A DNA stretch of 64,000 nucleotides. Source: an uncultured Gammaproteobacteria bacterium (GTDB taxonomy: Bacteria > Pseudomonadota > Gammaproteobacteria > GCA-001735895). Positions 2,097-16,856 of this stretch are shown one piece after another. The stretch covers positions 2,199 to 66,198 of the forward strand of contig CALCSG010000217.1 of assembly GCA_937894085.1 (NCBI GenBank). The letters are read 5' to 3'. Under the pieces are notes generated by a model, which saw only the letters and a program-made list of their open reading frames with translations, had not been told where the DNA came from and ran no database searches. The position numbers and the translations under genes are program-made. Every line of letters begins with the position of its first letter. Position 1 is the stretch's first letter.

Positions 2097-2342
2097 CTAA
2101 TGATCACACTTATCCATTTTCTCTTTTGATTTGGGTAACACCGATATGAGGAAGGTCGAGATCAGGATTATCGGTGACAGTAAGAGCAGGATAAAACCGA
2201 AAAACATGATGATATGCTGCAAATTCCAGATGTGGGGCACCACATGCATGGCGACCAGTATCAGCATAATACCGGCTGTAAAGAAGATAAGCGAAGCTGC
2301 CACTCCTTCGCGCATTGTTTGACAACCTAAGGTTAATAACAT
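2097..2342 (-). CDS. Small two-TM membrane protein, last gene of the cytochrome operon
   Basis: 81-aa ORF, strongly hydrophobic (two predicted helices), 30 bp downstream of the NapC/NirT-family gene on the same strand. Confidence 0.4.
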   Translation of the reverse strand: MLLTLGCQTMREGVAASLIFFTAGIMLILVAMHVVPHIWNLQHIIMFFGFILLLLSPIILISTFLISVLPKSKEKMDKCDH

Positions 2343-2372
2343 GCTTTTATCCTCAATCTATTTTTCTGATTT

Positions 2373-3020
2373 TTATTCATTTTCAGCCATTAGCTTTTTC
2401 GCTGTGCCTTTTTCCAGCCCGAACTCGAGCTCGATCATTTCATTCCAGGCAGCTCTTTTGAATGTTTTTTCATGCGGAACCTTGCGGTGTACCAGGTTGT
2501 AATGACATTCGATACAGCTTTTATCTTTAGCGTCTTCCAGGTGAATTTTACGGGTATCCGGACGATCACCGTAAATCGCCTCTTTAACATGACAGCGTTT
2601 ACAGGTTGCCGAGTCTCGATCTTTAAACCATTTCCTGGCTTCAAATGCTGCTTCTGGTAAATGCAGTGCATTCATCACGGGGTCATCATAGTTAGGGCCA
2701 AAAACAGCCCCTTTCACCTGCTTGATAACATCTTTACCTCCAATGAAATGATCCCAGGTTGCCGATATCACTCCTTCAGATACGTGACAGTCTCCACAAC
2801 TCGCCTGTACACCCGAACTGGGTTTGTAATGCTTCGACTCACGGTATGGCTCGGCAACAATTCCCATGGAATGGCAGGTCGTACAAAATTCTTCACTGCT
2901 GGTGTAATGATCAAACTCAATCAGGAAAAGAATGAACACAATACCTGCTATACCTCCAACTAACAGGGCAAACAGAACATGGCGGGTTATAAATGCGGGT
3001 AAAGGTAATTTAATCTTCAT
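2373..3020 (-). CDS. NapC/NirT/NrfH-family membrane-anchored tetraheme cytochrome c (quinol dehydrogenase)
   Basis: 215 aa with an N-terminal TM helix and four CxxCH motifs (CTTCH, CGDCH, CKRCH, CIECH) at NapC/NirT-like spacing. Overlaps the upstream octaheme gene by 11 bp. Confidence 0.85.
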   Translation of the reverse strand: MKIKLPLPAFITRHVLFALLVGGIAGIVFILFLIEFDHYTSSEEFCTTCHSMGIVAEPYRESKHYKPSSGVQASCGDCHVSEGVISATWDHFIGGKDVIKQVKGAVFGPNYDDPVMNALHLPEAAFEARKWFKDRDSATCKRCHVKEAIYGDRPDTRKIHLEDAKDKSCIECHYNLVHRKVPHEKTFKRAAWNEMIELEFGLEKGTAKKLMAENE

Positions 3021-4464
3021 TGCCTTTTCCCTGCCCGAAACCCAGTATAGGATTCGCTTTTTGCGGATGATTTAACCAGTCATGATGCTCTGAACCATTG
3101 ATATGCTTTTTGATCAGCGCATCACCTTTCTCTTTTCCAGCAACTTCACGTATCTGGGCTAGAAATTTTCCGTAAAAATCACTGCCCAGATCACTCATGC
3201 CTTTCCAGGTTGAACTGGGACTGCCCATCGCGGCACCATGCCTGGCCAGCGTTCCATGTGTATGCCACAGATTCCAGTAGGTGACTTCTAATGGTTCATC
3301 GAAAGGAAGAGGGGTCAACAGGCCTGCAGAATATAGATCCTGCATGATTGCCTGTGCAGGCTTGCCATATTTTTCATTATAAAGCTCGACCACATTATCA
3401 AATTGTGACATGGCATTTTCGCTAAACCCCTTACTGTGGCATTCCAGACAGGTTTTTGTCATCGCACCTCTGCGACGTTTAGGCGATGCAACAGCCTTAA
3501 CCTTGCCCATACTACCATCCATTTTTGAAATGCTTTCGCCACGTCCCGGTAAAGGCTCGGAGGTTGATAGTTCGCGTTTATCACCATCTTCAAAAATTAT
3601 TAAATATTGCTGTTCTGACACAGCTGAATTCAGGTTCCACGAGTCACGCATTCCAACATCGTGAGTGGATTTCATTTTTCCTGCAGCGCCCATATGACAG
3701 GTAACACAGGTAGGTGCAGCCGAATAATCCTGTCCTGCTACCCATTGATCACTGTCCATATTCATGTCTTTTTTATGTGCTTCATACATCATGCCATGCT
3801 TTGAAGTTTCATAAACTTCCTTATCGGGTGAATCGGGGCCGGAGTGACAATAAATACAGGCCTGTGGTTCACGCGCCTGTGCTTTGGAAAATGTATGCCG
3901 GCCATGACAGGCAGAACAGGAACCGACAGATCCATCAGGGTTAATTCGTCCAATACCTGAATTAGGCCAGGTGGATGGATCGAGTGAACCGTCACCACGT
4001 ACTTTAACTTCAGATCCATGGCACTTTGCACAACCCGCATCATTGATCGAAGGACTGCCAAAATGTTGAGAAAGTGCAGGCATACGGTTTTTAATAATTG
4101 ATAGAGCTTTGGTATGCACAGAACCTTTCTGTTGTTTTAATTCAGTTTCATGACAACGCCCGCAATCTTTGGGTGACACGATGGTAGCAATAATACTGCC
4201 TTCATGTTCGATAGCATCGATGTCTTCTTCATAAGCCTGATGACAATCCAGACAGTTAACATTAGCTGCCGCATGTGCACTGTTTTTCCATTGATGGGTT
4301 AATCCTGCCGAGGACCTGGCATGACAATCTACACAGGCTTTTCCTTCTTCACTACCCCAGGTACTGGAGTCCAGTGTTACTTTATCAGCCACAGCAGACG
4401 CCGAGAATAACAGGATAAATATGACTGTAAAAGCTGATAAAGGGGTCTGTGTAAAAGGCTTCAC
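3010..4464 (-). CDS. Octaheme c-type cytochrome, hydroxylamine-oxidoreductase (HAO) family-like, periplasmic
   Basis: 484 aa with a signal peptide and eight CxxCH motifs (CVDCH, CLDCH, CGRCH, CAKCH, CSACH, CIYCH, CVTCH, CLECH). No CxxCK. Coupled to a NapC/NirT (CycB-like) gene, as seen for HAO-family octahemes. Confidence 0.65.
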   Translation of the reverse strand: MKPFTQTPLSAFTVIFILLFSASAVADKVTLDSSTWGSEEGKACVDCHARSSAGLTHQWKNSAHAAANVNCLDCHQAYEEDIDAIEHEGSIIATIVSPKDCGRCHETELKQQKGSVHTKALSIIKNRMPALSQHFGSPSINDAGCAKCHGSEVKVRGDGSLDPSTWPNSGIGRINPDGSVGSCSACHGRHTFSKAQAREPQACIYCHSGPDSPDKEVYETSKHGMMYEAHKKDMNMDSDQWVAGQDYSAAPTCVTCHMGAAGKMKSTHDVGMRDSWNLNSAVSEQQYLIIFEDGDKRELSTSEPLPGRGESISKMDGSMGKVKAVASPKRRRGAMTKTCLECHSKGFSENAMSQFDNVVELYNEKYGKPAQAIMQDLYSAGLLTPLPFDEPLEVTYWNLWHTHGTLARHGAAMGSPSSTWKGMSDLGSDFYGKFLAQIREVAGKEKGDALIKKHINGSEHHDWLNHPQKANPILGFGQGKGNED

Positions 4465-4489
4465 TGCATTACTCCACTATTATTATTTT

Positions 4490-4525
4490 TAGTTATATTA
4501 AAACAGCCCCATTTAAGGGGCTAAA
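4490..4525 (-). terminator. Hairpin (agcccc-atttaa-ggggct), terminator/attenuator-like between cytochrome b and the HAO-like gene
   Basis: 6-bp GC stem at 4505-4510/4517-4522, followed on the minus strand by GTTTTAAT. Sits in the 92-bp gap between two minus-strand genes. Confidence 0.3.
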
Positions 4526-4556
4526 TTCAATTGCTGGTATTAATAAATATTTCTAA

Positions 4557-5156
4557 TTATTCTTTCTCAAAACCGAAAATCATTGCTTTGAGGTATCCAA
4601 GAAATTCATCACTGGTGGTCAAAGCCAGATACAGATGAACGATAAGAAATGCTAACAACATAAAAGCCATTGCGGTATGAATCAGCGCAATCACTAACAG
4701 GCTAACATCCCCAAGACCAATCATTGGCCAGTAAGGATAAAAAAAGTAGAGCAGACCACTTAGTACCGCAAATGGAAGCATAAAGATATGCAATGACAGG
4801 TATGCCATGCGCTGCATGGGATTTAGCTTTGAGCGTCTGGTTTTATGGTGAGGATGTTCACTACCACCAATAAATATATCCACCCCGTAATACTTCACCA
4901 TCGCTAACAATTTATTCATATTGGCAGGAATATATTGCTTCCACTCGCCGGTAACCATGTGCCAGAAAATACCCAGAAACCAGATGGCTATCAAAGACCA
5001 GGCAGCTACGATGTGAATATCAACCGCTTTTTCAAAGCCAAAAAAATCAAAAGTATCATGAATCTCAAAACCAGTTACCAGTAAGGTAATTACCAGTAAC
5101 CCCTGAGACCAGTGCCAGATCCGCTCGAAGCGGGTATACATCATGACTTCTTTCAT
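4557..5156 (-). CDS. Dihaem cytochrome b membrane subunit (Ni/Fe-hydrogenase-type cytochrome b / PhsC/CybB family)
   Basis: 199 aa with four TM helices. N-terminal RFERIWHWSQ motif and conserved His positions typical of PF01292-type cytochrome b. Start overlaps the upstream octaheme gene stop (ATGA). Confidence 0.8.
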   Translation of the reverse strand: MKEVMMYTRFERIWHWSQGLLVITLLVTGFEIHDTFDFFGFEKAVDIHIVAAWSLIAIWFLGIFWHMVTGEWKQYIPANMNKLLAMVKYYGVDIFIGGSEHPHHKTRRSKLNPMQRMAYLSLHIFMLPFAVLSGLLYFFYPYWPMIGLGDVSLLVIALIHTAMAFMLLAFLIVHLYLALTTSDEFLGYLKAMIFGFEKE

Positions 5157-6781
5157 TGTTTCTTCCTCCGTCTGGAAAATAACACTCGAACCAGACCATG
5201 CAGGCCGACCCCACCAAAAGTTCCTGCTACTGCCAGCCAGCCGATAGTGTCGAGGATGCTATTGTTATCGCGTCCCGGCATATAAAAATCTGTCAACTTA
5301 TCCAGTCTGCCGCCTTTGCTGTGGCAATCTGCACAACTTAAGGTCTGATCCTTGGGGGCAACCATATGCGCCAATGGCATGTGCATGGTGGTTTCAATGA
5401 AACCATATTCACCACTATAGTCTGCTCCCGCTTCTTTCATGGCCTCACTGATAGCACTGTCCCAGTCGTAAGATTTCCAGTAGGCAGCCTTATCCTTACC
5501 AAACAGATGGATCAGTGCCAGAGTGTTATTACCCTTGTCATAAGGTTGTTTACCGCGCATTACCTTAAAAGGCCAGATACGTGCATTCGGGTCGTCATAG
5601 GATCCGGAAAAATTATTTAACTCGACCACTTCTTGCGGATTGATTTTTTCATCCAGTTGCTTGAAATGAACATTACCGGATAACCAGGCATATTCCGGCT
5701 CAACATTTTCAGCCCATTTAAAATTTCCTTTTTTAGTGACATAGGTGACATAACCATGCTCATCTTTCATGGTGATTTCTTTTCCATCCGCATCTTTTTT
5801 ACCTGCAGTTGTCCAGTCCCACCATAATTTTGAAGGTACACCGCCTCGTGCATAAGCAGGTATGTGACAGGTCGTACAGGCTACTTTATCGGTATGATCA
5901 TTGATTTTATTATTCAAAGTCGATTTGTGTGGCGTCATCCCATGACATGACTCACAGGTAGCTCGACTATTATCATCACGTCCGGGCACATCGATACCGT
6001 GTGTATCTTTGGCAACCGGGTTATAACGACTACCTTTAACATCATGTCCATCAGTAGTATGACATTCACTACATCCAAAATTCAGGCCATCCACACCCAT
6101 GTGAACATCCAGCTCTTTTTTCGGATTGGTCATCGATGAGTCCAGATCACCGTGTTTGACTCCATCTCCGCCGCCGCCATAAAAGTGGCAGACACCGCAA
6201 TTCTCTCGACGTGTTTTACCTACCTTTTGCGCGACATCGCTTAAATCAGCCACTTTCCAGACTTTCTTACTGCCTTTCGGAAAAATCTTCTCCTTGTAGT
6301 TTGGATGACCGGCATCGGTTGGAAATTTCTTGTAGGTATCGGTAGTGTCGTGACAAACCAGACAGTCAACTTTATCTTCTGCAGTAAAATCGAAGCTGTC
6401 ATCTTTCCAGCCATAACCAATATGACAACTTGTGCAGCGTGGTTGATTACTGGTAATGGATAAACAGAAATTATTTATTACGCTTTTTTTACCGACTTCT
6501 TCACCAGTATCGGGATTGGTAAACGTCCAGTTCCAGTGCTTGGTTTTATGTAACTGTTTACTGGCCTCGGTATGACAACTGAGACAGGCTTTAGTGACTT
6601 CAGGACCTGTTTTAAAAGGTTTTTGAAGTTCTTCGAATTTACTGTGATCAGCGGTTGAAGTAGATTTTTTGGTAGTTGCACTTTCCTGCATAGCCAGACT
6701 TACACTGGCAAAACTGCTCAGATAAAGACACAGCGATATCAGAAAAGCAGATGTTTTATAACTGCTATTACGGGAAATCAT
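5153..6781 (-). CDS. Octaheme c-type cytochrome, OTR (octaheme tetrathionate reductase)-like, with C-terminal TM anchor
   Basis: 542 aa with a signal peptide and eight CxxCH motifs (CLSCH, CTSCH, CLVCH, CGVCH, CSECH, CESCH, CTTCH, CADCH). Hydrophobic C-terminal helix followed by RRRKKQ. Translationally coupled to the cytochrome b gene. Confidence 0.6.
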   Translation of the reverse strand: MISRNSSYKTSAFLISLCLYLSSFASVSLAMQESATTKKSTSTADHSKFEELQKPFKTGPEVTKACLSCHTEASKQLHKTKHWNWTFTNPDTGEEVGKKSVINNFCLSITSNQPRCTSCHIGYGWKDDSFDFTAEDKVDCLVCHDTTDTYKKFPTDAGHPNYKEKIFPKGSKKVWKVADLSDVAQKVGKTRRENCGVCHFYGGGGDGVKHGDLDSSMTNPKKELDVHMGVDGLNFGCSECHTTDGHDVKGSRYNPVAKDTHGIDVPGRDDNSRATCESCHGMTPHKSTLNNKINDHTDKVACTTCHIPAYARGGVPSKLWWDWTTAGKKDADGKEITMKDEHGYVTYVTKKGNFKWAENVEPEYAWLSGNVHFKQLDEKINPQEVVELNNFSGSYDDPNARIWPFKVMRGKQPYDKGNNTLALIHLFGKDKAAYWKSYDWDSAISEAMKEAGADYSGEYGFIETTMHMPLAHMVAPKDQTLSCADCHSKGGRLDKLTDFYMPGRDNNSILDTIGWLAVAGTFGGVGLHGLVRVLFSRRRKKQ

Positions 6782-6866
6782 GATACCCCCTCCCTAAAGT
6801 TTATTGCTTATAGTATCTCTGACCAAAGGCTGTAGACATTCATCTACAGCCTTTACCAGAACCCTC

Positions 6867-8156
6867 TTACAAGGAGTTTTCAGCCGAAGCAATCATCTTC
6901 GGAGCAGTTACATCTGTGGGGAGTTTAGTAAACTTTTTAACCAGACCAGGCCATAGCAGGTTGTAATATAACTCTGCACGAACCAGCTCTACACCTTTAG
7001 CAGGTATCGAGTATTCCAGGTCACGTTTTTCAAATGCTTTCAATCGAGTATCTGCACCCTGACCTTTTGCAGTTGGTGGACCTGTTGGCTTTCCATCACC
7101 ATCAACTAGAGTCAAAAACATAAATGCTTGTTTATCTTCTTTAGCGGGGTGGCCTTTAGCATTTTGCCAAACTACATTTCCGCTCTTATCATAAGCTGAA
7201 ATCTTTACATAGATATTTCTAAAGGGAGCGCCTGTAGGCATGGTATGTGGCTGTTTATTCTTAATCGTAACAGTCGACATTATGTTACCGCCATTCTTCT
7301 TACTGTCCATACTGAATAGTACTGAACGCTGTAACATACCCAAATCATGTCCACCGCCCATACTGTGATCGGCTACAGCATCATTAGTCGGCATGTGGCA
7401 TGACAGGCAATCAACCTGTGCATTACTGGCAATGTATTCATCACCCGTTGCACATAGAGGAACACCGTGAGAATTATTGCGCTTATCATGACAACCCATG
7501 CAAGCATCTGAACTTCTCAACTGCGTTGGGTTACTTTCCATAGGCATCGCCTGAATGGTCTTACCATCAATGGTTACCGCCTCGCCCAGATGTGGGTTCG
7601 GTTTTTGATCTGCTTCTCCACCACCAAAACCAAATGCATCACCGGCTGATGCCAGTTTCTGTAATTTAGTATTAGAATGGCGACCGGATCCCTGCAGCAC
7701 GTCAGAAACTTCATATGCCATCATACCGAGCTGCATTTTTCCATTTGCGGCGGTAGTACCTTTAAATTTTTTCAATGTATGACAGGCTACGCAGTTGACG
7801 CCTTCAGCATAGGCAGGTGTCGCGTCAAGTTTGGTCTTTTTATCTTTGGCGGCATTCGGGGCATGGCACTGTATACAAACTGGAAATTTGCCTGCTTTTG
7901 TTTTTACACCCTCCTGACCAGGATCACCAACAACGTTTCTATAAAATGTTCCATGAATGGGATCGTTGAACGCGGTACTGTTCGCATGCATCGAACCTTT
8001 CCATTGTTTATAGATTTCTTTATGGCAGGTTTTACAGGTTTCAGATGAGACCTGGTGAATTGATTTGTCAGCAAACACATTTGTAGCTGAGACTAAACTT
8101 AAACCACAAAATACAATTGCTGAAAATAACATCGAAGTTTTTGTCTTGTTGCGCAT
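6867..8156 (-). CDS. Pentaheme c-type cytochrome with a ~150-aa haem-free C-terminal domain
   Basis: 429 aa with a signal peptide and five CxxCH motifs (CKTCH, CIQCH, CVACH, CMGCH, CLSCH). First gene of the minus-strand cytochrome cluster, with a 494-bp AT-rich upstream region. Confidence 0.7.
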   Translation of the reverse strand: MRNKTKTSMLFSAIVFCGLSLVSATNVFADKSIHQVSSETCKTCHKEIYKQWKGSMHANSTAFNDPIHGTFYRNVVGDPGQEGVKTKAGKFPVCIQCHAPNAAKDKKTKLDATPAYAEGVNCVACHTLKKFKGTTAANGKMQLGMMAYEVSDVLQGSGRHSNTKLQKLASAGDAFGFGGGEADQKPNPHLGEAVTIDGKTIQAMPMESNPTQLRSSDACMGCHDKRNNSHGVPLCATGDEYIASNAQVDCLSCHMPTNDAVADHSMGGGHDLGMLQRSVLFSMDSKKNGGNIMSTVTIKNKQPHTMPTGAPFRNIYVKISAYDKSGNVVWQNAKGHPAKEDKQAFMFLTLVDGDGKPTGPPTAKGQGADTRLKAFEKRDLEYSIPAKGVELVRAELYYNLLWPGLVKKFTKLPTDVTAPKMIASAENSL

Positions 8157-8650
8157 TCCTGTCCTTCCTTATATGTTTTTATAAATTATAAAAAGAGCAA
8201 CATTCAACATAAAAATTTTAGCTTTATGGCTGCTTGAAAGATTAGTTTTGACTGGAGACTTTCACTAATTCAATTCTAAACTTCGCACTTCATCGACTTT
8301 CGTTTGCTAAAGACGAAAAATACGCGACTTATACTGCTCTCAAAGTATTTAAATATTTGGGGGTTTTTATTAAAAATCGAAAACAAAACCTAATTTTCTA
8401 ACTTTCATATTCATCCCTTCTTTATATTTTTTTTAAGGTAGCTAAAATATTAGCTTAAACACGACAACATAAGTTAATAACTCTTACAATTACACCGAAA
8501 ACAGGGGCTATACTGCAAAATAAGTGGCATTTAATTAATGTAAATTAATTTTTTAGCGGATACATACAGGCATCTTTTCTGCTTATCAACTAGCGGGAAG
8601 ATCTACTTAAAGAATAAAATATTCCTTATATAAAGACCGTTTAATCGATC

Positions 8651-11542
8651 TTATATTTGAGCTAAAAGTAGTTTTTTCATTTCAGCAGAGGGCACTGCCG
8701 GACTAAACAAATATCCCTGCATCTGATCACAGCCCTCAGCAAGCAATAGCTCAAATTGCTGAGGAGTTTCCACACCTTCGGCGATCAGATGCAGGTTCAT
8801 GCTTTTACCTAAGGCTATAATAGCCCGGGTAATTGCCAGATCCTCCTGGTCGCCGGGTAGATCACGCACAAATTCACGATCAATTTTCAATTTATCTACC
8901 GGAAACCGCTTTAGATAACTGAGCGATGAATAACCTGTCCCAAAGTCATCAATGGCTAAATCGACTCCCAAAGATTTTAATGCATTGAGTGTATGAATCG
9001 CCTGCTCGGCATTTTCCATTAACATGCTTTCGGTTATTTCCAGCTCAAGATAACCAGCATCAAGCCCGGATATCTGCAATATCTGCTGCACTTGCGAAAC
9101 AATATCAGCTTGAGTGAGCTGACGTGCTGATAAATTGACTGACATTTTTAGCGCAGGTAACCCGGCCCGCTGCCACTCAACGGCCTGACGACAGGCCTCG
9201 AACAGTACCCACTTTCCTATCGGTTCTATCAACCCGCTTTCTTCTGCGAAGGGAATAAACTGGTTTGGAGATACCAGACCTGTTTGCGGATGCTCCCAGC
9301 GTATCAGAGCTTCCATGCCAACTATCTGGTTAGAACTTAATTCGATCTGAGGTTGATAATAAAGACGAAATTCTTCACGATTTAACGCATGCCGCAAATC
9401 AACCTGAAGCTTTTGACGCTCTTTGGCGATGGCTGTCAGAGTATCAGAAAAGTACTGAAATCCATTGCGCCCCAGGTCTTTAGCCCGATACATAGCAGCA
9501 TCCGCATTTTTAATCAGGGTGTCGACATTTTCGCCCTGCTCAGGATAAATCGAGATACCGATACTACTGGAAACAAAAAGCTCATGACCGTCAATAGCAA
9601 ACGGCTTTCTGAATCTTTCCAGTATCTTCTCTGCGACCAGAGCGGCATCCTGTGGTTGATCAATCTGCTCAACCAGAATTAAAAACTCATCGCCACCCTG
9701 ACGTGCAACGGTATCACCCTGACGCACAATTTCCTTTAAAATCGTTGACGCACTCTGTAATAATTTATCGCCTACCGCATGCCCAAGAGAGTCATTGACC
9801 TCCTTAAAATTATCCAGATCTATGAACAATAAAGCCATATTCACTTTGCTTCGACTGGCTCGATGAATGGCATGTTCCAGGCGTAACTGAAATAACATGC
9901 GATTCGGTAAATTCGTCAGCGGATCGTGATGTGATAAATATTCAAGTCGCTGCTGGGTTTCTTTAATTGCACTTATATCACCGAAAACACCTACATAATT
10001 TGTCAGCTTACCGGTTTCATCTTTGAGTGTATTTATAGTCAGCCACTCCGGGTAAAGCTCACCTGATTTGCGCCTATTCCAGATTTCTCCCTGCCAATAA
10101 CCTTTTGCCTTAATAGATGACCACATTTCTATAAAGAAAGGGTTTTTATGTTGCCCGGAATGCAGGAATGAGGGATTCCTGCCGATGACTTCCTGTTCGC
10201 TATAACCAGTAATTTCTGTAAATGCCGGGTTGACACTGACAATATTGACATCAGCATCGGCAATAATCACACCTTCCACGGTTGACTCTACAATCTTGGC
10301 CGCCAGTAACTGCTGCTTTTCAGCCTGCTTTCGGCGCGAAATATTCCTGATGACACCTGAAATAGCCAAAGGTATACCATCATCATCCGCAATGGCTCGA
10401 GAGATAGCCTCTACGTCAACAAAATCACTATTGATACTATTTAGTTTAAACTCTGCAACGCAGTGCTCCTCCCTGGCGATAGCCTGGTCGGAAAATAGCT
10501 TCACACAACGATCATGATCTACAGGGTCAACAAATTCACTCCAGTGACGGGCCAGGGAAGACTCAACTGAATTTCCCGTAAGCTTTTCCCATGCGGGACT
10601 GAGAAACTCCCAGCAGCCATTAATATCGATACGAAAAAGCACATCTTCCATATTATTAATGACGGTTCTATAGGCTTCTCTACTTTCTTTTAATTCAGTT
10701 TCCCGTTTACCGATATTTTCCGCCATAGAATTAAATGCGAGACTTACCTGGTCCATATCCTGATCGGCTTCTCTATTCAGACGTACAGAGTAATCACCAT
10801 TTGAAAGCCTGACGGTGGCCGCATTCATACTTTTCATTCGCTTCAGAAGAATTCGATTCAACATCCAGGATGCGATAATTAAACTGACAAGAAAAATTAA
10901 TGTCTTAAGGATCAGCTCTTTTTTCAGCTCGGACAATAACCTGTCCTGGAAAAGTTGAGCGGGCAATTTTATACTTAAAATTCCCCGTAAATCATCAAGT
11001 TTATAACCATAGGCGGTATCATAATTTTCACTGATACTGGCCGGCGCATTTTTTTGTTCTCCATGGCAGACAAGACATTGGGTAACTATGCGCAGAGGTG
11101 CTGAAAAGTGATAAGCCTGTTCCCCGGTGGGTTTAATAAAAGGTACAAACCTGTCTGTCGCCTGTGGGTTCTGTCTGAAATAATTCATTGCCTCCAGTTC
11201 CACACTATCGGCCTGATTCTGAGGGTTTCTGGGTCTGTCCGAAACACTGTTAAACCATATACCATCATCAGTTAATAAATTATATTCTTTTGCGATTCTA
11301 CTAATTGAGTGAGCCGGCAAAAAACGGATAGTTTTATCATTAACGGAAATATTTTCTTCGATGAATACCCGTTGATAAACTCGCCGCATGGAAACCAGAA
11401 CACCCTGTAATATTTTTGATTCCCGGTAGATGCCGGCTTTAACGGATTCGACACTGAGTAGATAGCCACGATATTCCACCAGCCCAAATGCCAGTAACAT
11501 AATACCGCTTATTGCAAAAAGTGTTTTTGTCTGGAGATTCAT
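8651..11542 (-). CDS. Signalling protein: periplasmic haem-c sensor domain (CxxCH, DUF3365/Tll0287-like) - TM - HAMP - 2xPAS - GGDEF - EAL
   Basis: 963 aa. N-terminal TM, then a periplasmic domain with CLVCHGEQ, then a second TM plus HAMP. PAS domains, GGDEF (RQGGDEFLIL) and EAL (EALIRW...DDFGTGYSS) motifs are intact. Confidence 0.85.
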   Translation of the reverse strand: MNLQTKTLFAISGIMLLAFGLVEYRGYLLSVESVKAGIYRESKILQGVLVSMRRVYQRVFIEENISVNDKTIRFLPAHSISRIAKEYNLLTDDGIWFNSVSDRPRNPQNQADSVELEAMNYFRQNPQATDRFVPFIKPTGEQAYHFSAPLRIVTQCLVCHGEQKNAPASISENYDTAYGYKLDDLRGILSIKLPAQLFQDRLLSELKKELILKTLIFLVSLIIASWMLNRILLKRMKSMNAATVRLSNGDYSVRLNREADQDMDQVSLAFNSMAENIGKRETELKESREAYRTVINNMEDVLFRIDINGCWEFLSPAWEKLTGNSVESSLARHWSEFVDPVDHDRCVKLFSDQAIAREEHCVAEFKLNSINSDFVDVEAISRAIADDDGIPLAISGVIRNISRRKQAEKQQLLAAKIVESTVEGVIIADADVNIVSVNPAFTEITGYSEQEVIGRNPSFLHSGQHKNPFFIEMWSSIKAKGYWQGEIWNRRKSGELYPEWLTINTLKDETGKLTNYVGVFGDISAIKETQQRLEYLSHHDPLTNLPNRMLFQLRLEHAIHRASRSKVNMALLFIDLDNFKEVNDSLGHAVGDKLLQSASTILKEIVRQGDTVARQGGDEFLILVEQIDQPQDAALVAEKILERFRKPFAIDGHELFVSSSIGISIYPEQGENVDTLIKNADAAMYRAKDLGRNGFQYFSDTLTAIAKERQKLQVDLRHALNREEFRLYYQPQIELSSNQIVGMEALIRWEHPQTGLVSPNQFIPFAEESGLIEPIGKWVLFEACRQAVEWQRAGLPALKMSVNLSARQLTQADIVSQVQQILQISGLDAGYLELEITESMLMENAEQAIHTLNALKSLGVDLAIDDFGTGYSSLSYLKRFPVDKLKIDREFVRDLPGDQEDLAITRAIIALGKSMNLHLIAEGVETPQQFELLLAEGCDQMQGYLFSPAVPSAEMKKLLLAQI

Positions 11543-11685
11543 AACATATGACTATAGCTGCTTACAGCTAAAAAAAGTTATGAAATTGAATATTAAAACC
11601 TATAAAACATGATCAGATTTCTGCATTCTATTCAAATCAGTTCATTAAAAAAACTTTTAATCTGAACTTCAGGAAACTACGGCAG

Positions 11686-13122
11686 TTATTTAATAATTGC
11701 TGCAAACTCTTTAACCAGTGCATCAGCAGTAATACCATTAGCAAATTTAGTCACAAAGCTGCCATCCGGGGCCATTAAATAAAGGCTGGCTGTATGGTCC
11801 ATGGTATAAAGGCTCGAATCTGATTTATCTCTCGGGCCTTTTTCATACTTAACCCTGAACTGATCGGCAACCCGTTTTATCATCTGTTCAGAACCGGTAA
11901 GCCCAATCAGGCGTTGATCAAAGTAACTGACATAATTTCGTAACAGTTTTACCGTATCCCGTTCAGGATCAACAGAAATGAAATAAGGTTGAACCTGCTC
12001 TGCCAGTACACCCATCTGTTGCAGTGCCTGAGTCAATACCGTTAAACTGGTTGGACACACATCAGGGCAGGAAGTATAACCAAAAAACACCAGTGAATAT
12101 TTTCCCTTCATATCCTGTTCAGTCACAGTTTGTCCAAGATGATTGGTCAGAAAGAAACGCCCTCCCAACCCATCAATGACGGGACTATCGTCACCATAGG
12201 CCGCCATCCTTGCTTTTGCGGCAGCATCCAGATTAGCATTCAGACATCGCTTGATGACATCTGTATTGTATTCCATCAATTTAAGATAAAGTTCCGGCCC
12301 CGCTTGCAGATCAAGCCCCAGAGTATCCAGTTCACCAATATTTATACTCTGCCCTGCGGTTAACAACTGAAGATTTTTCGCTGGCATACTCTTGTCTATA
12401 AACAAACATGCAGCTTCATGACTGGTTATTCTTGTCCTGACTTTAAGCAAGTCTGTAACCCTTTCTACATCCCACGGAGAACCAGAAACTCGATCCAGTG
12501 TTTGCAGCGCATAGGCCTGCTCAAAATAATTCAGGTTGTCATAATACGAAACGCCGAGACCGGCTTTTAATCCTCGATATCCATATTCGTATTCTTTATC
12601 AATACGACGTAACGGATCCAGCATGGCCATTCGATTTCTAATATAAATATGGGAGCGGGCAGGGTCCAGCTGGACCAGCGCTTCGGTCAACTCATCTAAC
12701 ATGATGATTGCATTACGGTCATCCATCCAGAAAAAGGGATCTCGAAAATCGGGATTCTGTCGTGACGGTAAAATTTTCAGATCGGGGCTGGACAGTAACT
12801 CGATAACTTTGACCGTTTCTGGTAACTGGCTCACTGTTGACTGCAAGGTTTTTTCCAGTTCCTGGCCTACCCAGATAAATAAGCTGGATTCAGCAAGCTG
12901 CTGTTGCTGAGTTTCGCTTAACTCAAAGTTATAGGGTGTGTTTTTTCCATCAATTAACAGCAGGGGCTCGCCTATATCCTGCATCAGGCCGGAGACTATA
13001 GAATGCACCGGTTTAATACTGGTCACCACCCTGAATTTATTTGCTGACCAGGCAGGCAGACTGGTAACCATCAACCCACAACTAACGAGCAGGATAAATA
13101 GCGGAAGAATTTTTTTTATCAT
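11686..13122 (-). CDS. Fusion protein: ZnuA/TroA-like periplasmic metal-binding-fold domain + SCO1/SenC copper chaperone (thioredoxin-like, CxxxCP)
   Basis: 478 aa. The N-terminal half aligns to the ZnuA architecture (VVTSIKPVHSIV...LFIWVGQELE). The C-terminal half carries the SCO1/SenC signature GKYSLVFFGYTSCPDVCP. Signal peptide present. Confidence 0.7.
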   Translation of the reverse strand: MIKKILPLFILLVSCGLMVTSLPAWSANKFRVVTSIKPVHSIVSGLMQDIGEPLLLIDGKNTPYNFELSETQQQQLAESSLFIWVGQELEKTLQSTVSQLPETVKVIELLSSPDLKILPSRQNPDFRDPFFWMDDRNAIIMLDELTEALVQLDPARSHIYIRNRMAMLDPLRRIDKEYEYGYRGLKAGLGVSYYDNLNYFEQAYALQTLDRVSGSPWDVERVTDLLKVRTRITSHEAACLFIDKSMPAKNLQLLTAGQSINIGELDTLGLDLQAGPELYLKLMEYNTDVIKRCLNANLDAAAKARMAAYGDDSPVIDGLGGRFFLTNHLGQTVTEQDMKGKYSLVFFGYTSCPDVCPTSLTVLTQALQQMGVLAEQVQPYFISVDPERDTVKLLRNYVSYFDQRLIGLTGSEQMIKRVADQFRVKYEKGPRDKSDSSLYTMDHTASLYLMAPDGSFVTKFANGITADALVKEFAAIIK

Positions 13123-13457
13123 TGCTTAAAGTTTAATTCAATCTGCTTTATTGCGGCATCAACCTGTTGCGTGAAATCCTGTGAATCAGGACAGGAAGAA
13201 TTGTTACTCATAAAATTCATGAATGAGTCATTGGTTGCTTGTTCAAACCAGTCACCTAATACCCGCTGTTTGGGTAAGTGCACCACTAAAGTCAGCTTGA
13301 TTCGCTGCATTTGATCCATGTAACGACATTGCAGCGCAACTCCATTGAGCTGCCCCATACCGGCTATTGCCGATAATTGATCTGGTGTTGCGGCACCAGC
13401 TGGTGCAAACCACAATAAGCTTGCGATTAACGGGACTATTAACTGACTACTTTTCAT
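13119..13457 (-). CDS. Hypothetical secreted protein (signal peptide, conserved Cys pair)
   Basis: 112-aa ORF. Its stop overlaps the start of the SCO1 fusion (ATGA), so the two genes are coupled. Confidence 0.5.
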   Translation of the reverse strand: MKSSQLIVPLIASLLWFAPAGAATPDQLSAIAGMGQLNGVALQCRYMDQMQRIKLTLVVHLPKQRVLGDWFEQATNDSFMNFMSNNSSCPDSQDFTQQVDAAIKQIELNFKQ

Positions 13458-13477
13458 TTTTTACTCTGTATAATTGC

Positions 13478-14344
13478 TTAATGTTCGATATTTTCATCGT
13501 TTAACATTTTCAATAAATGGTCGGGGATTTCTCTGGCGCGGGAAAAATTTGCACCCGTTAATACGGCGTTGTTAAATCGTGTATTTTGAAGAAGTGATTC
13601 ACTAAAATTTGCGTTATCAAGGCGCGCACCATTTAATAAAGAATTGCTTATATTGGCACCAGTAAAATCAGAATTTTCCAGTGCGCCACCGGTTAACACC
13701 ACGTTATAAAATGTACTGTCTCGCAGTTTGCTGCCAATCAAAACCGCCCGCTGCATAAAACAGCCGACAAATTTACTTCTATTAAAATTACTTTCTTCCA
13801 TCGCAATATCTTTCATGTAGGCGGTTGTGAAATCAGCCTGCTCGGCAAACACTTCATTTAAATTAGCGCCAAACATATTGGCCCTGGTAAATTGACTGTT
13901 GCTCAGGTTGGCACCATCAAATGTGGTGTGAAAAAGATCGGCTTCGGTCATATCCACCTGTTCCATCTGACACTCGGTTAAAATGGCCCATTTCAAATCT
14001 GCCTTACGAAGGCTTGAGCCAGTTAGATTGCATCCGGAAAGCTTCGCATTAGATAGATCCACACCATCCAGTATTGACCCTTGTAAATCAATACCCTCTA
14101 AAGACCTGCCTGCAAAGGAGCAATGTCTCAGATCGGTTGCTGCCTGTGGAGACTCACAATCACCTTTTTCTGCTGCATAAAGTGAAACAGCAGGGAAAAG
14201 AGCCGCAAATATAAATGTAAATAGAACTGTTCTGATCGATCGCACAAATAATTCCCGGTCTGATATTTCTAGCTGCTTGACAAACAGCAGGAATGACCGT
14301 CTATTAAACAAGATAAACGGGTCGTTGACTTTGATATTGATCAA
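13478..14344 (-). CDS. Pentapeptide-repeat protein (secreted)
   Basis: About 200 aa of A(D/N)LxX-type pentapeptide repeats (ANLSNSQFTRANMFGANLNE...). N-terminal hydrophobic segment. The true start may lie downstream of the annotated Met. Confidence 0.75.
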   Translation of the reverse strand: MINIKVNDPFILFNRRSFLLFVKQLEISDRELFVRSIRTVLFTFIFAALFPAVSLYAAEKGDCESPQAATDLRHCSFAGRSLEGIDLQGSILDGVDLSNAKLSGCNLTGSSLRKADLKWAILTECQMEQVDMTEADLFHTTFDGANLSNSQFTRANMFGANLNEVFAEQADFTTAYMKDIAMEESNFNRSKFVGCFMQRAVLIGSKLRDSTFYNVVLTGGALENSDFTGANISNSLLNGARLDNANFSESLLQNTRFNNAVLTGANFSRAREIPDHLLKMLNDENIEH

Positions 14345-14402
14345 GAGTCTACATTCGTTACTGGGGTTATAATATCAAATTCAGCTTATAATATTTCTTT
14401 AC

Positions 14403-15080
14403 ATGCTTTTAAAATTCACTCTAGTTGTTTGTTCTTTATTGTACCTGTCTTCAGCGGTAGCTTCGGAGGTCGATTATGACCCCGATATCGGCAATGAAAT
14501 TAATGAAGTTTGTGCTGGCTGTCATGGCGAATACGGGCAGGGTGGAAAAGAAGGATTATACCCCCGACTGGCAGGTATGCCGGCTGTTTTCATCGCAAAA
14601 CAGCTTGAATTGTTCAGAAGCCACAAACGCCCTAATATGCCGATGCTGCAATATATTGATGAACGTCAAATGCCGGATCAGGACATCTTAAATATTTCCA
14701 TTTATCTTTCTAAAATAAAACTCAATACACGGTTACCCCCTGTCGATGAAACAGCCGCCGATTTTGACGCTTATGCGCGTTTGCTGGAATCTAAAAAATT
14801 AATGCAAATTCCACGCGCAAAAGGCAATGTGGAAAATGGCTTAAAACTTTACAAAAAAGAATGTGCAAGTTGTCACGGTAAAGATGGTTATGGAATAGAT
14901 AAAAAAGGCGTTCCCTTATTAGCCGGGCAATACACCAGTTACCTGTGGAAACAGGTGGATAAATTGCGTAAAAAAATCAGGATTCACGATATAGATGAAC
15001 CCGATACAGAATTACTTAATGATTTTAGTGATCAGGAGCTGACAGATATATTTGCGTGGTTATCTACAGCGGACGATTAA
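14403..15080 (+). CDS. Dihaem cytochrome c4-family protein
   Basis: 225 aa with a signal peptide and two CxxCH motifs (CAGCH, CASCH) in two c-type domains. Confidence 0.8.
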   Translation: MLLKFTLVVCSLLYLSSAVASEVDYDPDIGNEINEVCAGCHGEYGQGGKEGLYPRLAGMPAVFIAKQLELFRSHKRPNMPMLQYIDERQMPDQDILNISIYLSKIKLNTRLPPVDETAADFDAYARLLESKKLMQIPRAKGNVENGLKLYKKECASCHGKDGYGIDKKGVPLLAGQYTSYLWKQVDKLRKKIRIHDIDEPDTELLNDFSDQELTDIFAWLSTADD

Positions 15081-15386
15081 ACCCGAAAACTAATCCTGAC
15101 ATTGACCTGTGTGGCAGGAGTTATTTTTTATTGTCCATTAATGATTATTACTCCTTCAAAAAAGATTAGAGGCTGTTTTCTCAGTATGAGTTGAAAAGCT
15201 GATATTTCCACTGTTTCATTAATAAATATCTTTAATGTACTGCAATTGCAGTATTTACCCACCCCGTTGCAATCCCTAGCATAGTCTTAATTTCGGGCTC
15301 CCCTGATTCGTATCTGTCACAATGAGGGGAAGTACCCATTCTATCAACGGTCATTTTCGCGTGATTTTTCACGGAAAATTACGCAC

Positions 15387-16856
15387 ATGGAGCACAATAT
15401 GCCTAACGGTTTAAGACTATTAAAAACTGAAGCCTATATCGATGGTAAGTGGATATCCGCCGAAAGCGGTAAACGATTCCCTGTTACCAATCCTGCGAAT
15501 GGAGAGTTACTGGCTGAAGTACCTGATTTAGGGCAATCCGAAACTCGCCTGGCAATTGAGCAAGCCAATGCTGCCTGGCCGGCATGGAGAGAGAAAACTG
15601 CAAAAGAGCGGGCGAATATTCTACGCCGCTGGTATGAATTACAGGTTCAGCATCAGGAAGACCTGGCGCAACTGATGACCGCCGAACAGGGTAAACCCCT
15701 CGCCGAGGCACGCGGCGAAGTGATATATGCCGCTTCATTTGTCGAATGGTTTGCGGAAGAAGGCAAACGGATTTACGGTGATGTAATTCCCACAAATGCT
15801 AATGATCGACGAATTCTGGTCATCAAACAACCGATTGGTGTGGTCGCTGCCATCACTCCGTGGAATTTTCCACTTGCCATGATTACCCGCAAGTGCGCAC
15901 CTGCCCTTGCCGCCGGTTGCCCAGTAGTGGTCAAACCTGCGGATCTAACCCCATTATCGGCACTGGCGCTGGCTGCTCTGGCCGAACAGGCAGGTATTCC
16001 TGCCGGTGTGTTTAATGTGGTCACCAGTAAAAGCCCGATTGAAGTCGGCGCTGAACTGACATCAAATCCATTAGTGCGAAAACTGTCCTTCACCGGATCT
16101 ACCGCAGTCGGTAAAAAACTGATTGAGCAGTGCGCTGCAACGGTCAAGAAACTGTCTCTGGAACTGGGCGGTAATGCACCCTTTATCGTATTCGATGATG
16201 CGGATCTGGATGCGGCTGTTGCCGGGGCCATGGCGTCAAAATATCGCAACGCGGGGCAGACCTGCGTATGCGCTAACCGCCTGCTGGTTCAGGACGGAGT
16301 ATACGACGCATTCGCAGAAAAGCTTGCAGTTGCCGTATCAGCCCTGAAGGTAGGGCATGGAATAGATGAAGGCGTCACACAGGGACCGCTGATTAATGAG
16401 GCCGCTATAGCCAAGGTGGAAGACCATATCAGCGATGCCGTGGCACACGGAGCGCGCATCTTATGCGGGGGTCACCGTCACGAAATAGGTGGAACCTTCT
16501 TCCAGCCCACTATCCTCGCAGATGTAACCGAAGTGATGAAGGTTAGCCGCGAAGAGACCTTCGGCCCGGTTGCCCCGCTGTACCGCTTTAAGGATGAGCA
16601 GGAAGCTATCCGTCTGGCGAATGATACAGAATTCGGGCTCGCGTCCTATTTTTACAGCCGTGATATCGGCCGCTGCTGGCGCGTCGCCGAGGCACTCGAA
16701 TACGGCATCGTCGGCATCAACGAAGGCATTATCTCGACCGAAGTTGCTCCATTTGGCGGCGTAAAGGAATCCGGTCTGGGCAGAGAAGGATCGAAATACG
16801 GCCTGGAAGACTTTACCGAAATTAAATACATGTGCATGGGCGGCCTGAATAGTTAG
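15387..16856 (+). CDS. gabD: Succinate-semialdehyde dehydrogenase (NAD(P)+), aldehyde dehydrogenase family
   Basis: 489 aa with strong GabD-like sequence throughout (catalytic Cys region GQTCVCANR, ELGGNAPFIVF). The start may be the internal MPNGL Met. Confidence 0.9.
   Translation: MEHNMPNGLRLLKTEAYIDGKWISAESGKRFPVTNPANGELLAEVPDLGQSETRLAIEQANAAWPAWREKTAKERANILRRWYELQVQHQEDLAQLMTAEQGKPLAEARGEVIYAASFVEWFAEEGKRIYGDVIPTNANDRRILVIKQPIGVVAAITPWNFPLAMITRKCAPALAAGCPVVVKPADLTPLSALALAALAEQAGIPAGVFNVVTSKSPIEVGAELTSNPLVRKLSFTGSTAVGKKLIEQCAATVKKLSLELGGNAPFIVFDDADLDAAVAGAMASKYRNAGQTCVCANRLLVQDGVYDAFAEKLAVAVSALKVGHGIDEGVTQGPLINEAAIAKVEDHISDAVAHGARILCGGHRHEIGGTFFQPTILADVTEVMKVSREETFGPVAPLYRFKDEQEAIRLANDTEFGLASYFYSRDIGRCWRVAEALEYGIVGINEGIISTEVAPFGGVKESGLGREGSKYGLEDFTEIKYMCMGGLNS

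What the first reader, a model, noticed from the sequence alone, without database searches (positions are those of the whole stretch)
8651..11542. c-di-GMP turnover protein (GGDEF-EAL) whose periplasmic sensor carries a covalent haem-c motif, encoded beside the multihaem cluster
The periplasmic domain between the two TM helices contains CLVCH, matching the DUF3365/Tll0287-like haem-c PAS-type sensor fold found on some chemoreceptors and kinases. Together with intact GGDEF and EAL motifs and two cytoplasmic PAS domains, this suggests redox or ligand (NO, nitrite, sulfide?) sensing at a c-type haem, controlling c-di-GMP. Its position immediately upstream of the cytochrome operon suggests a functional link between respiration and a biofilm or motility decision.
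Basis: partly seen in the sequence, partly recalled or inferred. Interest (0 to 1): 0.7.

Follow-up and report, generated by a model that had tools for sequence, protein, structure and literature searches.

The report
Periplasmic haem-c sensor controlling c-di-GMP
This gene encodes a membrane protein whose outward-facing domain almost certainly carries a covalently bound haem and whose inner part makes and breaks the bacterial signal c-di-GMP; this design is already described, and its position beside a respiratory cytochrome cluster is not conserved in related genomes.

Summary

A 2026 preprint renamed this family sCache_heme. It lists GGDEF/EAL fusions as a frequent architecture and shows slow NO release from a signalling-type member that lacks the distal Cys. 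The window protein also has no distal Cys. It is a new member of a known kind.

The proposed link to the cytochrome cluster (c554-like, Otr, cytochrome b, HAO-like, NapC/NirT) is weak:
- Two full-length orthologues (68% identity) lie in other neighbourhoods.
- None of 80 loci with sensor relatives has an adjacent multihaem gene.
- One sister genome lacks the gene at this site, and another keeps only a decayed remnant there.
- No c-di-GMP riboswitch was found.

The ligand (NO or redox state) and the direction of c-di-GMP control remain inferred.

The parts
8651..11542 (-). Whole gene: 963-aa TM1 / sCache_heme / TM2 / HAMP / PAS / PAS / GGDEF / EAL protein
   Evidence: ORF and translation. Pfam domains. 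68% identical, gap-free orthologues P0010 and L098.
11474..11524 (-). TM1 / signal anchor (aa 7-23)
   Evidence: Mean Kyte-Doolittle hydropathy 1.98. No transmembrane predictor was available.
10916..11473 (-). Periplasmic sCache_heme (Tll0287-like, DUF3365) sensor domain, aa 24-209
11063..11077 (-). CLVCH haem-c attachment motif (aa 156-160); H160 is the presumed proximal ligand
   Evidence: Only CxxCH in the protein. C156, C159 and H160 are invariant in 160/160 relatives. Chance expectation about 9e-4.
11309..11311 (-). His78 in the conserved FLPAH motif, a candidate distal haem ligand (unresolved)
   Evidence: His in 136/159 relatives, otherwise Tyr or Phe. It lies 1-3 residues from the positions that alignments assign to the distal Cys of Tll0287-type proteins, but those alignments are not reliable N-terminal of aa 91.
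10847..10915 (-). TM2 (aa 210-232)
   Evidence: Mean hydropathy 1.94, followed by the basic NRILLKRMK stretch.
10712..10861 (-). HAMP domain (aa 228-277)
   Evidence: PF00672 E=4.4e-6, 27.4 bits, cut-off 25.
9971..10663 (-). Two cytoplasmic PAS domains (about aa 294-400 and 416-524)
   Evidence: PAS, PAS_3 and PAS_9 each match in two stretches, the best at 416-524. TIGR00229 matches in two stretches.
9464..9934 (-). GGDEF domain (aa 537-693) with GGDEF at 616 and I-site RQGD at 607
   Evidence: PF00990 E=6.2e-53. Motifs.
8699..9400 (-). EAL domain (aa 715-948) with EAL, YQP, DDFGTG, KID and EGVE signatures
   Evidence: PF00563 E=1.6e-78. Motifs.
8157..8650 (-). AT-rich 494-bp spacer between the sensor gene and the cytochrome operon. 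Its promoter-proximal ~320 bp are conserved in relatives that lack an intact sensor gene.
   Evidence: Sequence. blastn to L093 and L094. Alignment. No terminator-like site and no Rfam match.
2097..8156 (-). Neighbouring cluster, not shown to be functionally linked: c554-like pentahaem (6867-8156), Otr-family octahaem (5153-6781), cytochrome b (4557-5156), HAO-family octahaem (3010-4464), NapC/NirT tetrahaem (2373-3020), 81-aa membrane ORF (2097-2342)
   Evidence: Pfam and NCBIfam (TIGR04315 643 bits, cut-off 375). CxxCH counts. Conserved as a unit in L093-L096 and L177-L179.

Best explanation
The gene encodes an inner-membrane signalling enzyme, probably a dimer. Its periplasmic single-Cache domain carries one covalently attached c-type haem at C156/C159, with H160 as proximal ligand.

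Proposed mechanism: binding of a small haem ligand, most likely nitric oxide, or a change in haem redox or coordination state, alters the domain. The change passes through TM2 and the HAMP domain to two cytoplasmic PAS domains. It then shifts the balance between the GGDEF cyclase and the EAL phosphodiesterase, and so resets cellular c-di-GMP.

Shown here: the domain identities, the fold, invariance of the haem motif, absence of a distal Cys, and intact catalytic motifs.

Inferred: haem occupancy, NO as the ligand (by analogy with the P. azotoformans Cache_heme-HAMP receptor), and the sign of the output. My guess is that ligand binding favours the phosphodiesterase, as in other NO-to-dispersal systems, because the output module resembles phosphodiesterases such as DibA.

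The position next to the Otr/HAO-type cytochrome cluster is best read as a lineage-specific arrangement, not an obligate functional unit.
For: Domain calls: PF11845, HAMP, PAS x2, GGDEF and EAL.

Haem motif: CxxCH invariant in 160/160 relatives, alongside other invariant or near-invariant positions (N106, A111, P76, R105, Y174, Y180, R186-G187).

Topology: two hydrophobic segments and the positive-inside pattern place the domain in the periplasm, where haem c is attached.

Distal ligand: no Cys other than the CxxCH pair in aa 24-209. Tll0287-type stand-alone proteins have an invariant VCKPVG Cys.

Literature: 10.64898/2026.02.01.703092 reports the CXXCH conserved in 99% of the family. It reports that the signalling-type member tested lacks the distal Cys, and that this member (P. 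azotoformans) releases NO slowly (koff 6e-4 s-1) without forming a stable O2 complex. 10.64898/2026.05.25.727664 shows that NO binding is transmitted across the membrane to the HAMP domain in that receptor.

Output: GGDEF, I-site and EAL signatures are intact. The best named match for the output module is phosphodiesterase DibA (756 bits, below the 980 cut-off).

Selection: two orthologues are 68% identical over 959 aa without a single gap, so the whole architecture is under constraint.
Against: - No biochemical data exist for this protein or, in the searched literature, for any Cache_heme-GGDEF-EAL protein.
- NO sensing rests on one characterised relative whose sequence I could not compare directly.
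- The related Geobacter haem-c sensors and Tll0287 have been described as redox-related or of unknown ligand.
- The distal ligand is unresolved. If His78 gives a tight bis-His haem, redox sensing becomes more likely than gas binding.
- The direction of the c-di-GMP change cannot be read from sequence.
- The two PAS domains may bring in additional, dominant signals.
Confidence: 0.6

Rival explanations
1. Redox sensor rather than gas sensor. The haem c is six-coordinate, for example His160/His78. It reports the redox poise of the periplasm (O2, quinol-linked carriers, sulfide) through its Fe2+/Fe3+ state, as proposed for the Geobacter GSU0582/GSU0935 chemoreceptor domains and for His/Cys Tll0287. 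c-di-GMP would then follow electron-acceptor availability.
For: - His78 is conserved in 136/159 relatives.
- The P. azotoformans relative is low-spin six-coordinate in both redox states and autoxidises quickly (10.64898/2026.02.01.703092).
- Family members Tll0287 and P. putida are assigned redox-related roles in that paper.
- The organism lives in oxygen-stratified lakes (ENA samples). Orthologue L098 sits among fumarate-reductase-like and 2-oxoacid:ferredoxin oxidoreductase genes.
Against: - The characterised signalling-type member binds NO tightly.
- There is no distal Cys here.
- The equivalence of His78 to a haem ligand is not established.
Confidence: 0.25
2. Dedicated feedback sensor of the adjacent cytochrome module. 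The protein detects NO or hydroxylamine leaking from nitrite reduction by the neighbouring Otr and HAO-type octahaem enzymes. It then couples that respiration to a motility or biofilm decision, or to expression of the cluster.
For: - The gene is on the same strand, 494 bp upstream of the cluster.
- A remnant of the same gene at the same site in L094 shows the adjacency is ancestral in this clade.
- Otr homologues reduce nitrite, hydroxylamine and tetrathionate (PMC6449678; Atkinson et al. 2007 as cited in PMC11237559).
- Other c-di-GMP genes lie within 5-8 kb of the cluster in Sedimenticola, Ca. Venteria and a Taylorina symbiont.
Against: - Both full-length orthologues are in unrelated neighbourhoods.
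- 0 of 80 loci with sensor relatives have an adjacent multihaem gene; 2 of 80 have one about 9 kb away.
- L093, L095, L177 and L178 keep the cluster with no such gene in the fetched flanks, L179 has only a sensor-less PAS-GGDEF-EAL nearby, and L094 has let the sensor gene decay.
- The operon's upstream region is conserved independently of the sensor.
- No c-di-GMP riboswitch or other Rfam element lies in the spacer.
- GGDEF/EAL genes are common, so proximity within several kb is expected fairly often by chance.
Confidence: 0.12
3. The CxxCH is not used. The periplasmic domain would be an ordinary ligand-binding Cache domain and the motif a relic.
For: None found. It is considered only because haem occupancy was not measured.
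Against: C156, C159 and H160 are invariant in 160/160 relatives spanning 39-68% identity. The literature reports 99% conservation across more than 5,000 family members, and three members were shown to bind haem c. The host clearly matures c-type cytochromes, with 27 CxxCH motifs in the neighbouring genes.
Confidence: 0.03

Closest known systems
sCache_heme / Cache_heme family (Pfam PF11845, DUF3365, Tll0287-like; Deshpande et al. 2026, bioRxiv 10.64898/2026.02.01.703092)
   Same: HMM match well above cut-off. Same fold with the CxxCH on a short helix inserted before the last beta-strand. Periplasmic location between two TM helices. Fused to signalling modules; GGDEF/EAL fusions are listed there as a frequent architecture.
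   Different: Nothing categorical. This protein and its GGDEF-EAL class have not been studied experimentally. It adds two PAS domains between the HAMP and the output.
Pseudomonas azotoformans CHH receptor (Cache_heme-TM-HAMP; bioRxiv 10.64898/2026.05.25.727664)
   Same: Periplasmic Cache_heme without a distal Cys, two TM helices and a HAMP domain. NO binding there is transmitted across the membrane.
   Different: CHH has no enzymatic output and signals through a bound Ser/Thr kinase. The window protein carries its own PAS-PAS-GGDEF-EAL output and has no such kinase nearby. I could not compare the sequences directly.
Tll0287 of Thermosynechococcus elongatus (PDB 5b82)
   Different: Tll0287 is a soluble stand-alone protein with His/Cys ligation (VCKPVG Cys). 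The window protein has no such Cys, its N-terminal half is not alignable by sequence, and it is a membrane-bound signalling enzyme.
Geobacter sulfurreducens GSU0582/GSU0935 periplasmic haem-c chemoreceptor domains
   Same: Periplasmic haem-c sensor domains on transmembrane signal transducers. The 2026 preprint counts them in the same family.
   Different: Their output is an MCP. They were not recovered by my sequence profile at E<=1 or among the top fold hits, so they are distant relatives at best.
PAS-GGDEF-EAL c-di-GMP phosphodiesterases such as DibA (P. putida), PdeR and DosP, and cytoplasmic NO-to-c-di-GMP circuits (H-NOX or NosP partnered enzymes)
   Same: The output module aligns over aa 401-956 to the DibA model (756 bits). 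The logic 'haem ligand controls c-di-GMP' is the same.
   Different: The score is below the equivalog cut-off (980), so it is not DibA. The sensor is periplasmic, covalent haem c on the same polypeptide. It is neither a cytoplasmic haem b domain nor a separate H-NOX/NosP partner.

Membership tests
sCache_heme (PF11845, Tll0287-like/DUF3365) | Match to the family HMM above the curated cut-off | tested here: met
   93.9 bits against cut-off 24.1, E=1.6e-26, aa 47-194.
sCache_heme (PF11845, Tll0287-like/DUF3365) | Canonical CXXCH conserved at the family position | tested here: met
   CLVCH at 156-160 aligns with CLACH 141-145 of 5b82. It is invariant in 160/160 relatives.
sCache_heme (PF11845, Tll0287-like/DUF3365) | Single-Cache fold with the haem motif on a short helix inserted between beta3 and beta4 | tested here: met
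sCache_heme (PF11845, Tll0287-like/DUF3365) | Extracytoplasmic location, needed for haem c attachment | tested here: met
   The domain is flanked by hydrophobic segments aa 7-23 and 210-232, with basic residues after TM2. This is a hydropathy argument only; no dedicated topology predictor was run.
sCache_heme (PF11845, Tll0287-like/DUF3365) | Covalently bound haem c actually present | not testable with these tools
   Needs haem staining, pyridine haemochrome or mass spectrometry of the expressed domain.
Signalling-type ('Cluster 2') sCache_heme NO sensors | Fused to TM helices and signal-transduction modules | tested here: met
   TM-HAMP-PAS-PAS-GGDEF-EAL.
Signalling-type ('Cluster 2') sCache_heme NO sensors | Lacks the distal axial Cys of Tll0287-type proteins | tested here: met
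   No Cys in aa 24-209 apart from C156 and C159. Tll0287-type proteins have an invariant Cys in VCKPVG. No Cys occurs at or near that region in 159 relatives.
Signalling-type ('Cluster 2') sCache_heme NO sensors | Slow NO dissociation and no stable O2 complex | not testable with these tools
   Known for only one member (10.64898/2026.02.01.703092). Requires spectroscopy.
Active diguanylate cyclase (GGDEF) | GG(D/E)EF active-site motif and RxxD I-site five residues upstream | tested here: met
   RQGDTVARQGGDEF at 607-620. PF00990 E=6e-53. Activity itself was not tested.
Active c-di-GMP phosphodiesterase (EAL) | EAL, (Y)QP, N, E-x-E, DDFGTG, KxD, EGVE and QG signature residues | tested here: met
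   EAL 744, YQP 729, SVNLS, ELEITE, DDFGTG 865, KID 886, EGVE 922 and QMQG 940. PF00563 E=1.6e-78. Activity was not tested.
DibA phosphodiesterase equivalog (NF045675) | Whole-protein score at or above the curated cut-off | tested here: not met
   756.5 bits against cut-off 980. The match covers only aa 401-956.
   Orthologues L092/L097 and L098 have no cytochromes nearby. Clusters in L093, L095, L177 and L178 have no sensor gene in the fetched flanks; L179 has only a sensor-less PAS-GGDEF-EAL nearby. L094 has only a pseudogene remnant. 0 of 80 family loci have an adjacent multihaem ORF.

The most novel reading that the evidence does not exclude
In this lake gammaproteobacterium the haem-c Cache sensor specifically monitors reactive nitrogen intermediates (NO, hydroxylamine) released in the periplasm by the adjacent Otr/HAO-type nitrite- or tetrathionate-reducing module. 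It converts this into a c-di-GMP change that governs attachment or motility along the redox gradient. This would be a periplasmic, single-polypeptide counterpart of H-NOX/NosP circuits, wired to a particular respiratory pathway. The remnant in L094 and the recurrent PAS-GGDEF-EAL or MCP genes next to the same cluster in Sedimenticola and Ca. Venteria would then be traces of a repeatedly rebuilt link between respiration and behaviour.
Probability: 0.12. Interest if true: 0.55.

Novelty: new member of a known kind. Interest (0 to 1): 0.3.

Why it matters
If the haem domain senses NO or periplasmic redox state, this protein would be a direct, one-protein route from the periplasm to c-di-GMP. Periplasmic NO sensors are rare, and no Cache_heme-GGDEF-EAL enzyme has been characterised in the searched literature. 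It would therefore be a reasonable candidate for testing how a covalent haem c signal crosses the membrane to control cyclase and phosphodiesterase activity.

The design itself is already catalogued, and the suggested coupling to the cytochrome cluster is not supported by synteny. The finding confirms and extends known biology; it does not open a new question.

Tried and rejected
1. A genome-contig scan with the full protein returned only PAS-GGDEF-EAL relatives (query residues 217 onward). Re-mining those 80 loci showed only L004 (Sedimenticola) carries the cytochrome cluster, and its GGDEF-EAL protein is no closer to the window protein than many others (600-672 bit plateau). I do not claim orthology.

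2. The word-indexed homologue search with the sensor domain gave only 9 hits at 43% identity or less. The exhaustive representative search was needed to find the orthologue P0010.

3. I tried to identify the distal haem ligand by homology to Cys68 of Tll0287. Local phmmer, hmmsearch and hhalign alignments all start at aa 91. A forced global alignment places the Cys opposite L75/P76, and gapless extension places it opposite S79. This is unresolved, and model coordinates are not returned by the tool.

4. I looked for a c-di-GMP riboswitch or any Rfam element in window 1-16000, including the 494-bp spacer, and found none at E<=1.

5. The promoter/terminator scan found fewer promoter-like sites than in shuffles and no terminator in the spacer, so it is uninformative. 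Alignment of the operon upstream regions showed conserved blocks but no recognisable regulator box.

Taxonomy is inferred only from named relatives of the neighbouring cytochrome: gammaproteobacterial sulfur oxidisers.

7. The reading 'chance CxxCH' was considered and rejected.
Full report
**1. Observation.**
The ORF at 8651-11542 on the - strand is intact and encodes 963 aa. Pfam finds these domains:
- Tll0287-like (PF11845, formerly DUF3365) at aa 47-194: E=1.6e-26, 93.9 bits against a cut-off of 24.1.
- HAMP at 228-277.
- PAS families, each with two matching stretches, the strongest at 416-524.
- GGDEF at 537-693 (E=6e-53).
- EAL at 715-948 (E=2e-78).

The single CxxCH motif, CLVCH, is at aa 156-160. 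C156 and C159 are the only Cys residues between the two hydrophobic segments. Those segments are aa 7-23 and 210-232, with mean hydropathy 1.98 and 1.94. The second is followed by NRILLKRMK, so residues 24-209 should face the periplasm. A CxxCH appears in only 173 of 200,000 shuffles of the protein.

**2. What the sensor domain is.**
- Sequence search of the PDB finds only Tll0287 (5b82): E=7.7e-10 with the single sequence and 5.5e-16 with a family profile. CLVCH aligns to CLACH 141-145.
- An AlphaFold2 model of aa 25-209 is confident (pLDDT 90.1, pTM 0.84).
- Foldseek puts 5b82 first (E=6.8e-10, TM 0.71), followed by Cache domains.
- In the model the CxxCH sits on a short helix just before the last beta-strand.

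**3. Conservation.**
An exhaustive HMMER search of 1.84 billion cluster representatives found 1,792 relatives at E<=1e-3 and 217 at E<=1e-30. I aligned the top 150 plus the nine word-search hits:
- C156, C159 and H160 are invariant (160/160).
- N106, A111 and P76 are also invariant.
- R105, S101-D102, E115, Y174, Y180, R186-G187, S190 and P194 exceed 95%.

The top hit, P0010, is a full-length orthologue: 968 aa, 68% identical over 959 aa with no gaps. A second orthologue is in L098 (68.5% identity). Of the 150 representatives, 34 carry a GGDEF domain and 29 carry GGDEF plus EAL, most with both motifs intact.

**4. What is known.**
The literature search found two 2026 preprints from the Crane and Zhulin groups.
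- The first (10.64898/2026.02.01.703092) shows CXXCH is 99% conserved in DUF3365/Tll0287 and reclassifies the fold from PAS to Cache ('sCache_heme').
  - It lists fusions to histidine kinases, MCPs and GGDEF/EAL enzymes as the frequent signalling architectures.
  - It distinguishes stand-alone His/Cys proteins (redox-like, weak NO binding) from a signalling-type protein without the distal Cys.
  - The signalling member tested, P. azotoformans Cache_heme-TM-HAMP, releases NO slowly (koff 6e-4 s-1), forms no stable O2 complex and autoxidises fast.
- The second (10.64898/2026.05.25.727664) shows that NO binding is transmitted across the membrane to the HAMP domain in that receptor.

The window protein fits the signalling type. 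It has TM helices, a HAMP domain and no periplasmic Cys other than the CxxCH pair. Tll0287-type proteins carry an invariant Cys in VCKPVG.

I could not establish the sixth ligand. His78 (FLPAH) is conserved in 136/159 relatives. It lies within 1-3 residues of the positions to which gapless or forced-global alignments assign the Tll0287 Cys. However, all reliable alignments begin at aa 91.

**5. Output.**
GGDEF (616), the I-site RQGD (607) and the full set of EAL signature residues are intact. NCBIfam's best match for aa 401-956 is phosphodiesterase DibA, at 756 bits against a cut-off of 980. The protein is therefore not an equivalog of DibA. Sequence cannot tell whether the net activity is synthesis or breakdown.

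**6. Neighbourhood.**
Downstream on the same strand, after a 494-bp AT-rich spacer, lies the cytochrome cluster:

| Gene | Coordinates | CxxCH motifs |
|---|---|---|
| c554-like cytochrome | 6867-8156 | 5 |
| Otr-family octahaem cytochrome (TIGR04315, 643 bits, cut-off 375) | 5153-6781 | 8 |
| Cytochrome b | 4557-5156 | 0 |
| HAO-family octahaem cytochrome (PF13447) | 3010-4464 | 8 |
| NapC/NirT tetrahaem quinol dehydrogenase | 2373-3020 | 4 |
| 81-aa membrane ORF | 2097-2342 | not counted |

Relatives of Otr reduce tetrathionate, nitrite and hydroxylamine (PMC6449678, PMC11237559). A thematic link to an NO or redox sensor is therefore reasonable. Upstream lie a ZnuA-like/SCO1 fusion, a 112-aa ORF, a pentapeptide-repeat protein and a dihaem cytochrome c.

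**7. Test of the link.**
The exact protein occurs with the same cluster in several stratified-lake metagenome assemblies, which are one population. Beyond that population the evidence is as follows.

- (a) Orthologue P0010 (L092/L097) is flanked by non-coding DNA and a lipoprotein-like gene.
- (b) Orthologue L098 (118-kb contig) is flanked upstream by fumarate-reductase-like flavoprotein and Fe-S genes. A 2-oxoacid:ferredoxin oxidoreductase lies downstream, and there is no multihaem ORF within 10 kb.
- (c) Of 80 metagenomic loci encoding relatives of the sensor domain, none has an adjacent ORF with three or more CxxCH motifs. Two have one about 9 kb away.
- (d) The c554-like gene has many 60-84% identical homologues in gammaproteobacterial sulfur oxidisers (Thiodiazotropha, Sedimenticola, Ca. 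Venteria), and the cluster travels as a unit. Its contexts are:
  - L093 (80% identity): the order is dihaem cytochrome c, 112-aa ORF, ZnuA-SCO1, then directly the cluster, with no trace of the sensor.
  - L094 (79% identity): the 970 bp upstream of the cluster hold a decayed remnant. TM2 (aa 206-228) and the HAMP start (230-250) are joined to aa 889-913 and 924-961, with stop codons and frameshifts.
  - L095/L096: a divergent CRP/FNR-type regulator occupies the upstream position.
  - L177 and L178 have no Cache_heme gene in the flanks, and L179 has only a sensor-less PAS-GGDEF-EAL.
- (e) The roughly 320 bp proximal to the operon are conserved in L094 and partly in L093 regardless of the sensor.
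- (f) No terminator-like site and no Rfam element, in particular no c-di-GMP riboswitch, lies in the spacer.

The adjacency is therefore ancestral within a narrow clade. It was dispensable (lost or decayed twice), and it is not a property of the orthologue group or the family.

**8. A weak counter-hint.**
Other c-di-GMP or chemotaxis genes with cytoplasmic PAS sensors lie within 5-8 kb of the same cluster in three lineages:
- Sedimenticola: a PAS-MCP plus a 741-aa PAS-PAS-GGDEF-EAL that is 48% identical to aa 294-959.
- Ca. Venteria: a REC-PAS-GGDEF-EAL.
- The Taylorina symbiont: a DGCcoil-GGDEF.

I take one GGDEF/EAL gene per 60-80 kb as a rough baseline. My own rough binomial estimate then gives p of about 0.06 for three of five loci, which is not significant. 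The Sedimenticola protein is also no closer to the window protein than dozens of unlinked homologues.

**9. Verdict.**
The molecular interpretation is right and now has a published framework. The protein is a new, uncharacterised member of the sCache_heme signalling class with a PAS-PAS-GGDEF-EAL output.
- The most likely mechanism is ligand- or redox-dependent switching of a periplasmic haem c, relayed by TM2 and HAMP to c-di-GMP turnover.
- NO is the leading candidate ligand by analogy.
- The functional coupling to the cytochrome cluster remains possible in this lineage but is not supported by comparative evidence.
- Interest is modest.

Noticed in passing
L094:1-480 (GCA_024449705.1, JAANSU011742439.1): A pseudogene remnant of the sensor gene lies directly upstream of the orthologous cytochrome cluster. 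TM2 and the HAMP start are fused to the last ~75 residues of the EAL domain, with stop codons and frameshifts. It sits at a contig start, so an assembly artefact is not excluded.
   Followed up: yes
L093:9500-14316 (GCA_024449465.1): A sister genome has ZnuA-SCO1 followed directly by the cytochrome cluster. It has no sensor gene, no Otr gene and a shortened cytochrome b (155 aa). nosD/nosF/nosY-like and Fer4_5 genes lie just upstream, so the locus is part of an N-oxide respiration region there.
   Followed up: partly
window 11686-13457 (-): A 478-aa fusion of a ZnuA-like periplasmic metal-binding domain with an SCO1/SenC copper-chaperone domain overlaps by 4 bp with a 112-aa ORF that has no family match. 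The pair is conserved in L093. It may act in metal (copper) delivery; its function is unknown.
   Followed up: partly
window 13478-14344 (-): A pentapeptide-repeat protein (288 aa, TTG start) is present here but absent from the corresponding spot in L093.
   Followed up: no
window 2097-2342 (-): An 81-aa hydrophobic ORF directly after the NapC/NirT gene is conserved at the same position in most related clusters (81-83 aa in L093, L094, L095, L177, L178 and L179). It is probably an unannotated membrane subunit of the module.
   Followed up: partly
L004 / L179 (Sedimenticola sp., JBEVVY010000001.1), L177 (Ca. Venteria), L095: The same cytochrome cluster is flanked by other signalling genes. These are a PAS-MCP plus PAS-PAS-GGDEF-EAL (48% identical to aa 294-959 of the window protein), a REC-PAS-GGDEF-EAL, a DGCcoil-GGDEF and a divergent CRP/FNR regulator. 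The pattern recurs but is not statistically secured.
   Followed up: partly
L098:4323-6044 and 2916-3728: Near the second orthologue of the sensor lie a PP2C phosphatase/Ser-Thr kinase fusion and a formate/nitrite transporter. This is notable because a Cache_heme-HAMP receptor was recently shown to work with a Ser/Thr kinase.
   Followed up: no
L086:10001-15928: A Cache_heme histidine kinase (P0007, split by a frameshift or called as two genes) is followed by hemerythrin, FIST and hemerythrin-kinase genes. This cluster of putative gas or redox sensors has no cytochromes.
   Followed up: no
window 698-1567 (-), within the low-GC stretch 1-2000: A 289-aa Cys-rich ORF (starts MQGKCKLCKKKK) has no NCBIfam match (it was not scanned against Pfam). 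It lies in a 36% GC segment, against about 44% GC in the adjoining cytochrome-cluster region, and may be foreign DNA at the end of the cytochrome cluster.
   Followed up: no
window 42218-44383 (-) and 40370-41803 (-): Another sensory protein (CHASE plus two PAS domains, 721 aa) lies near a sigma-54-dependent response regulator. They appear unrelated to the finding.
   Followed up: no
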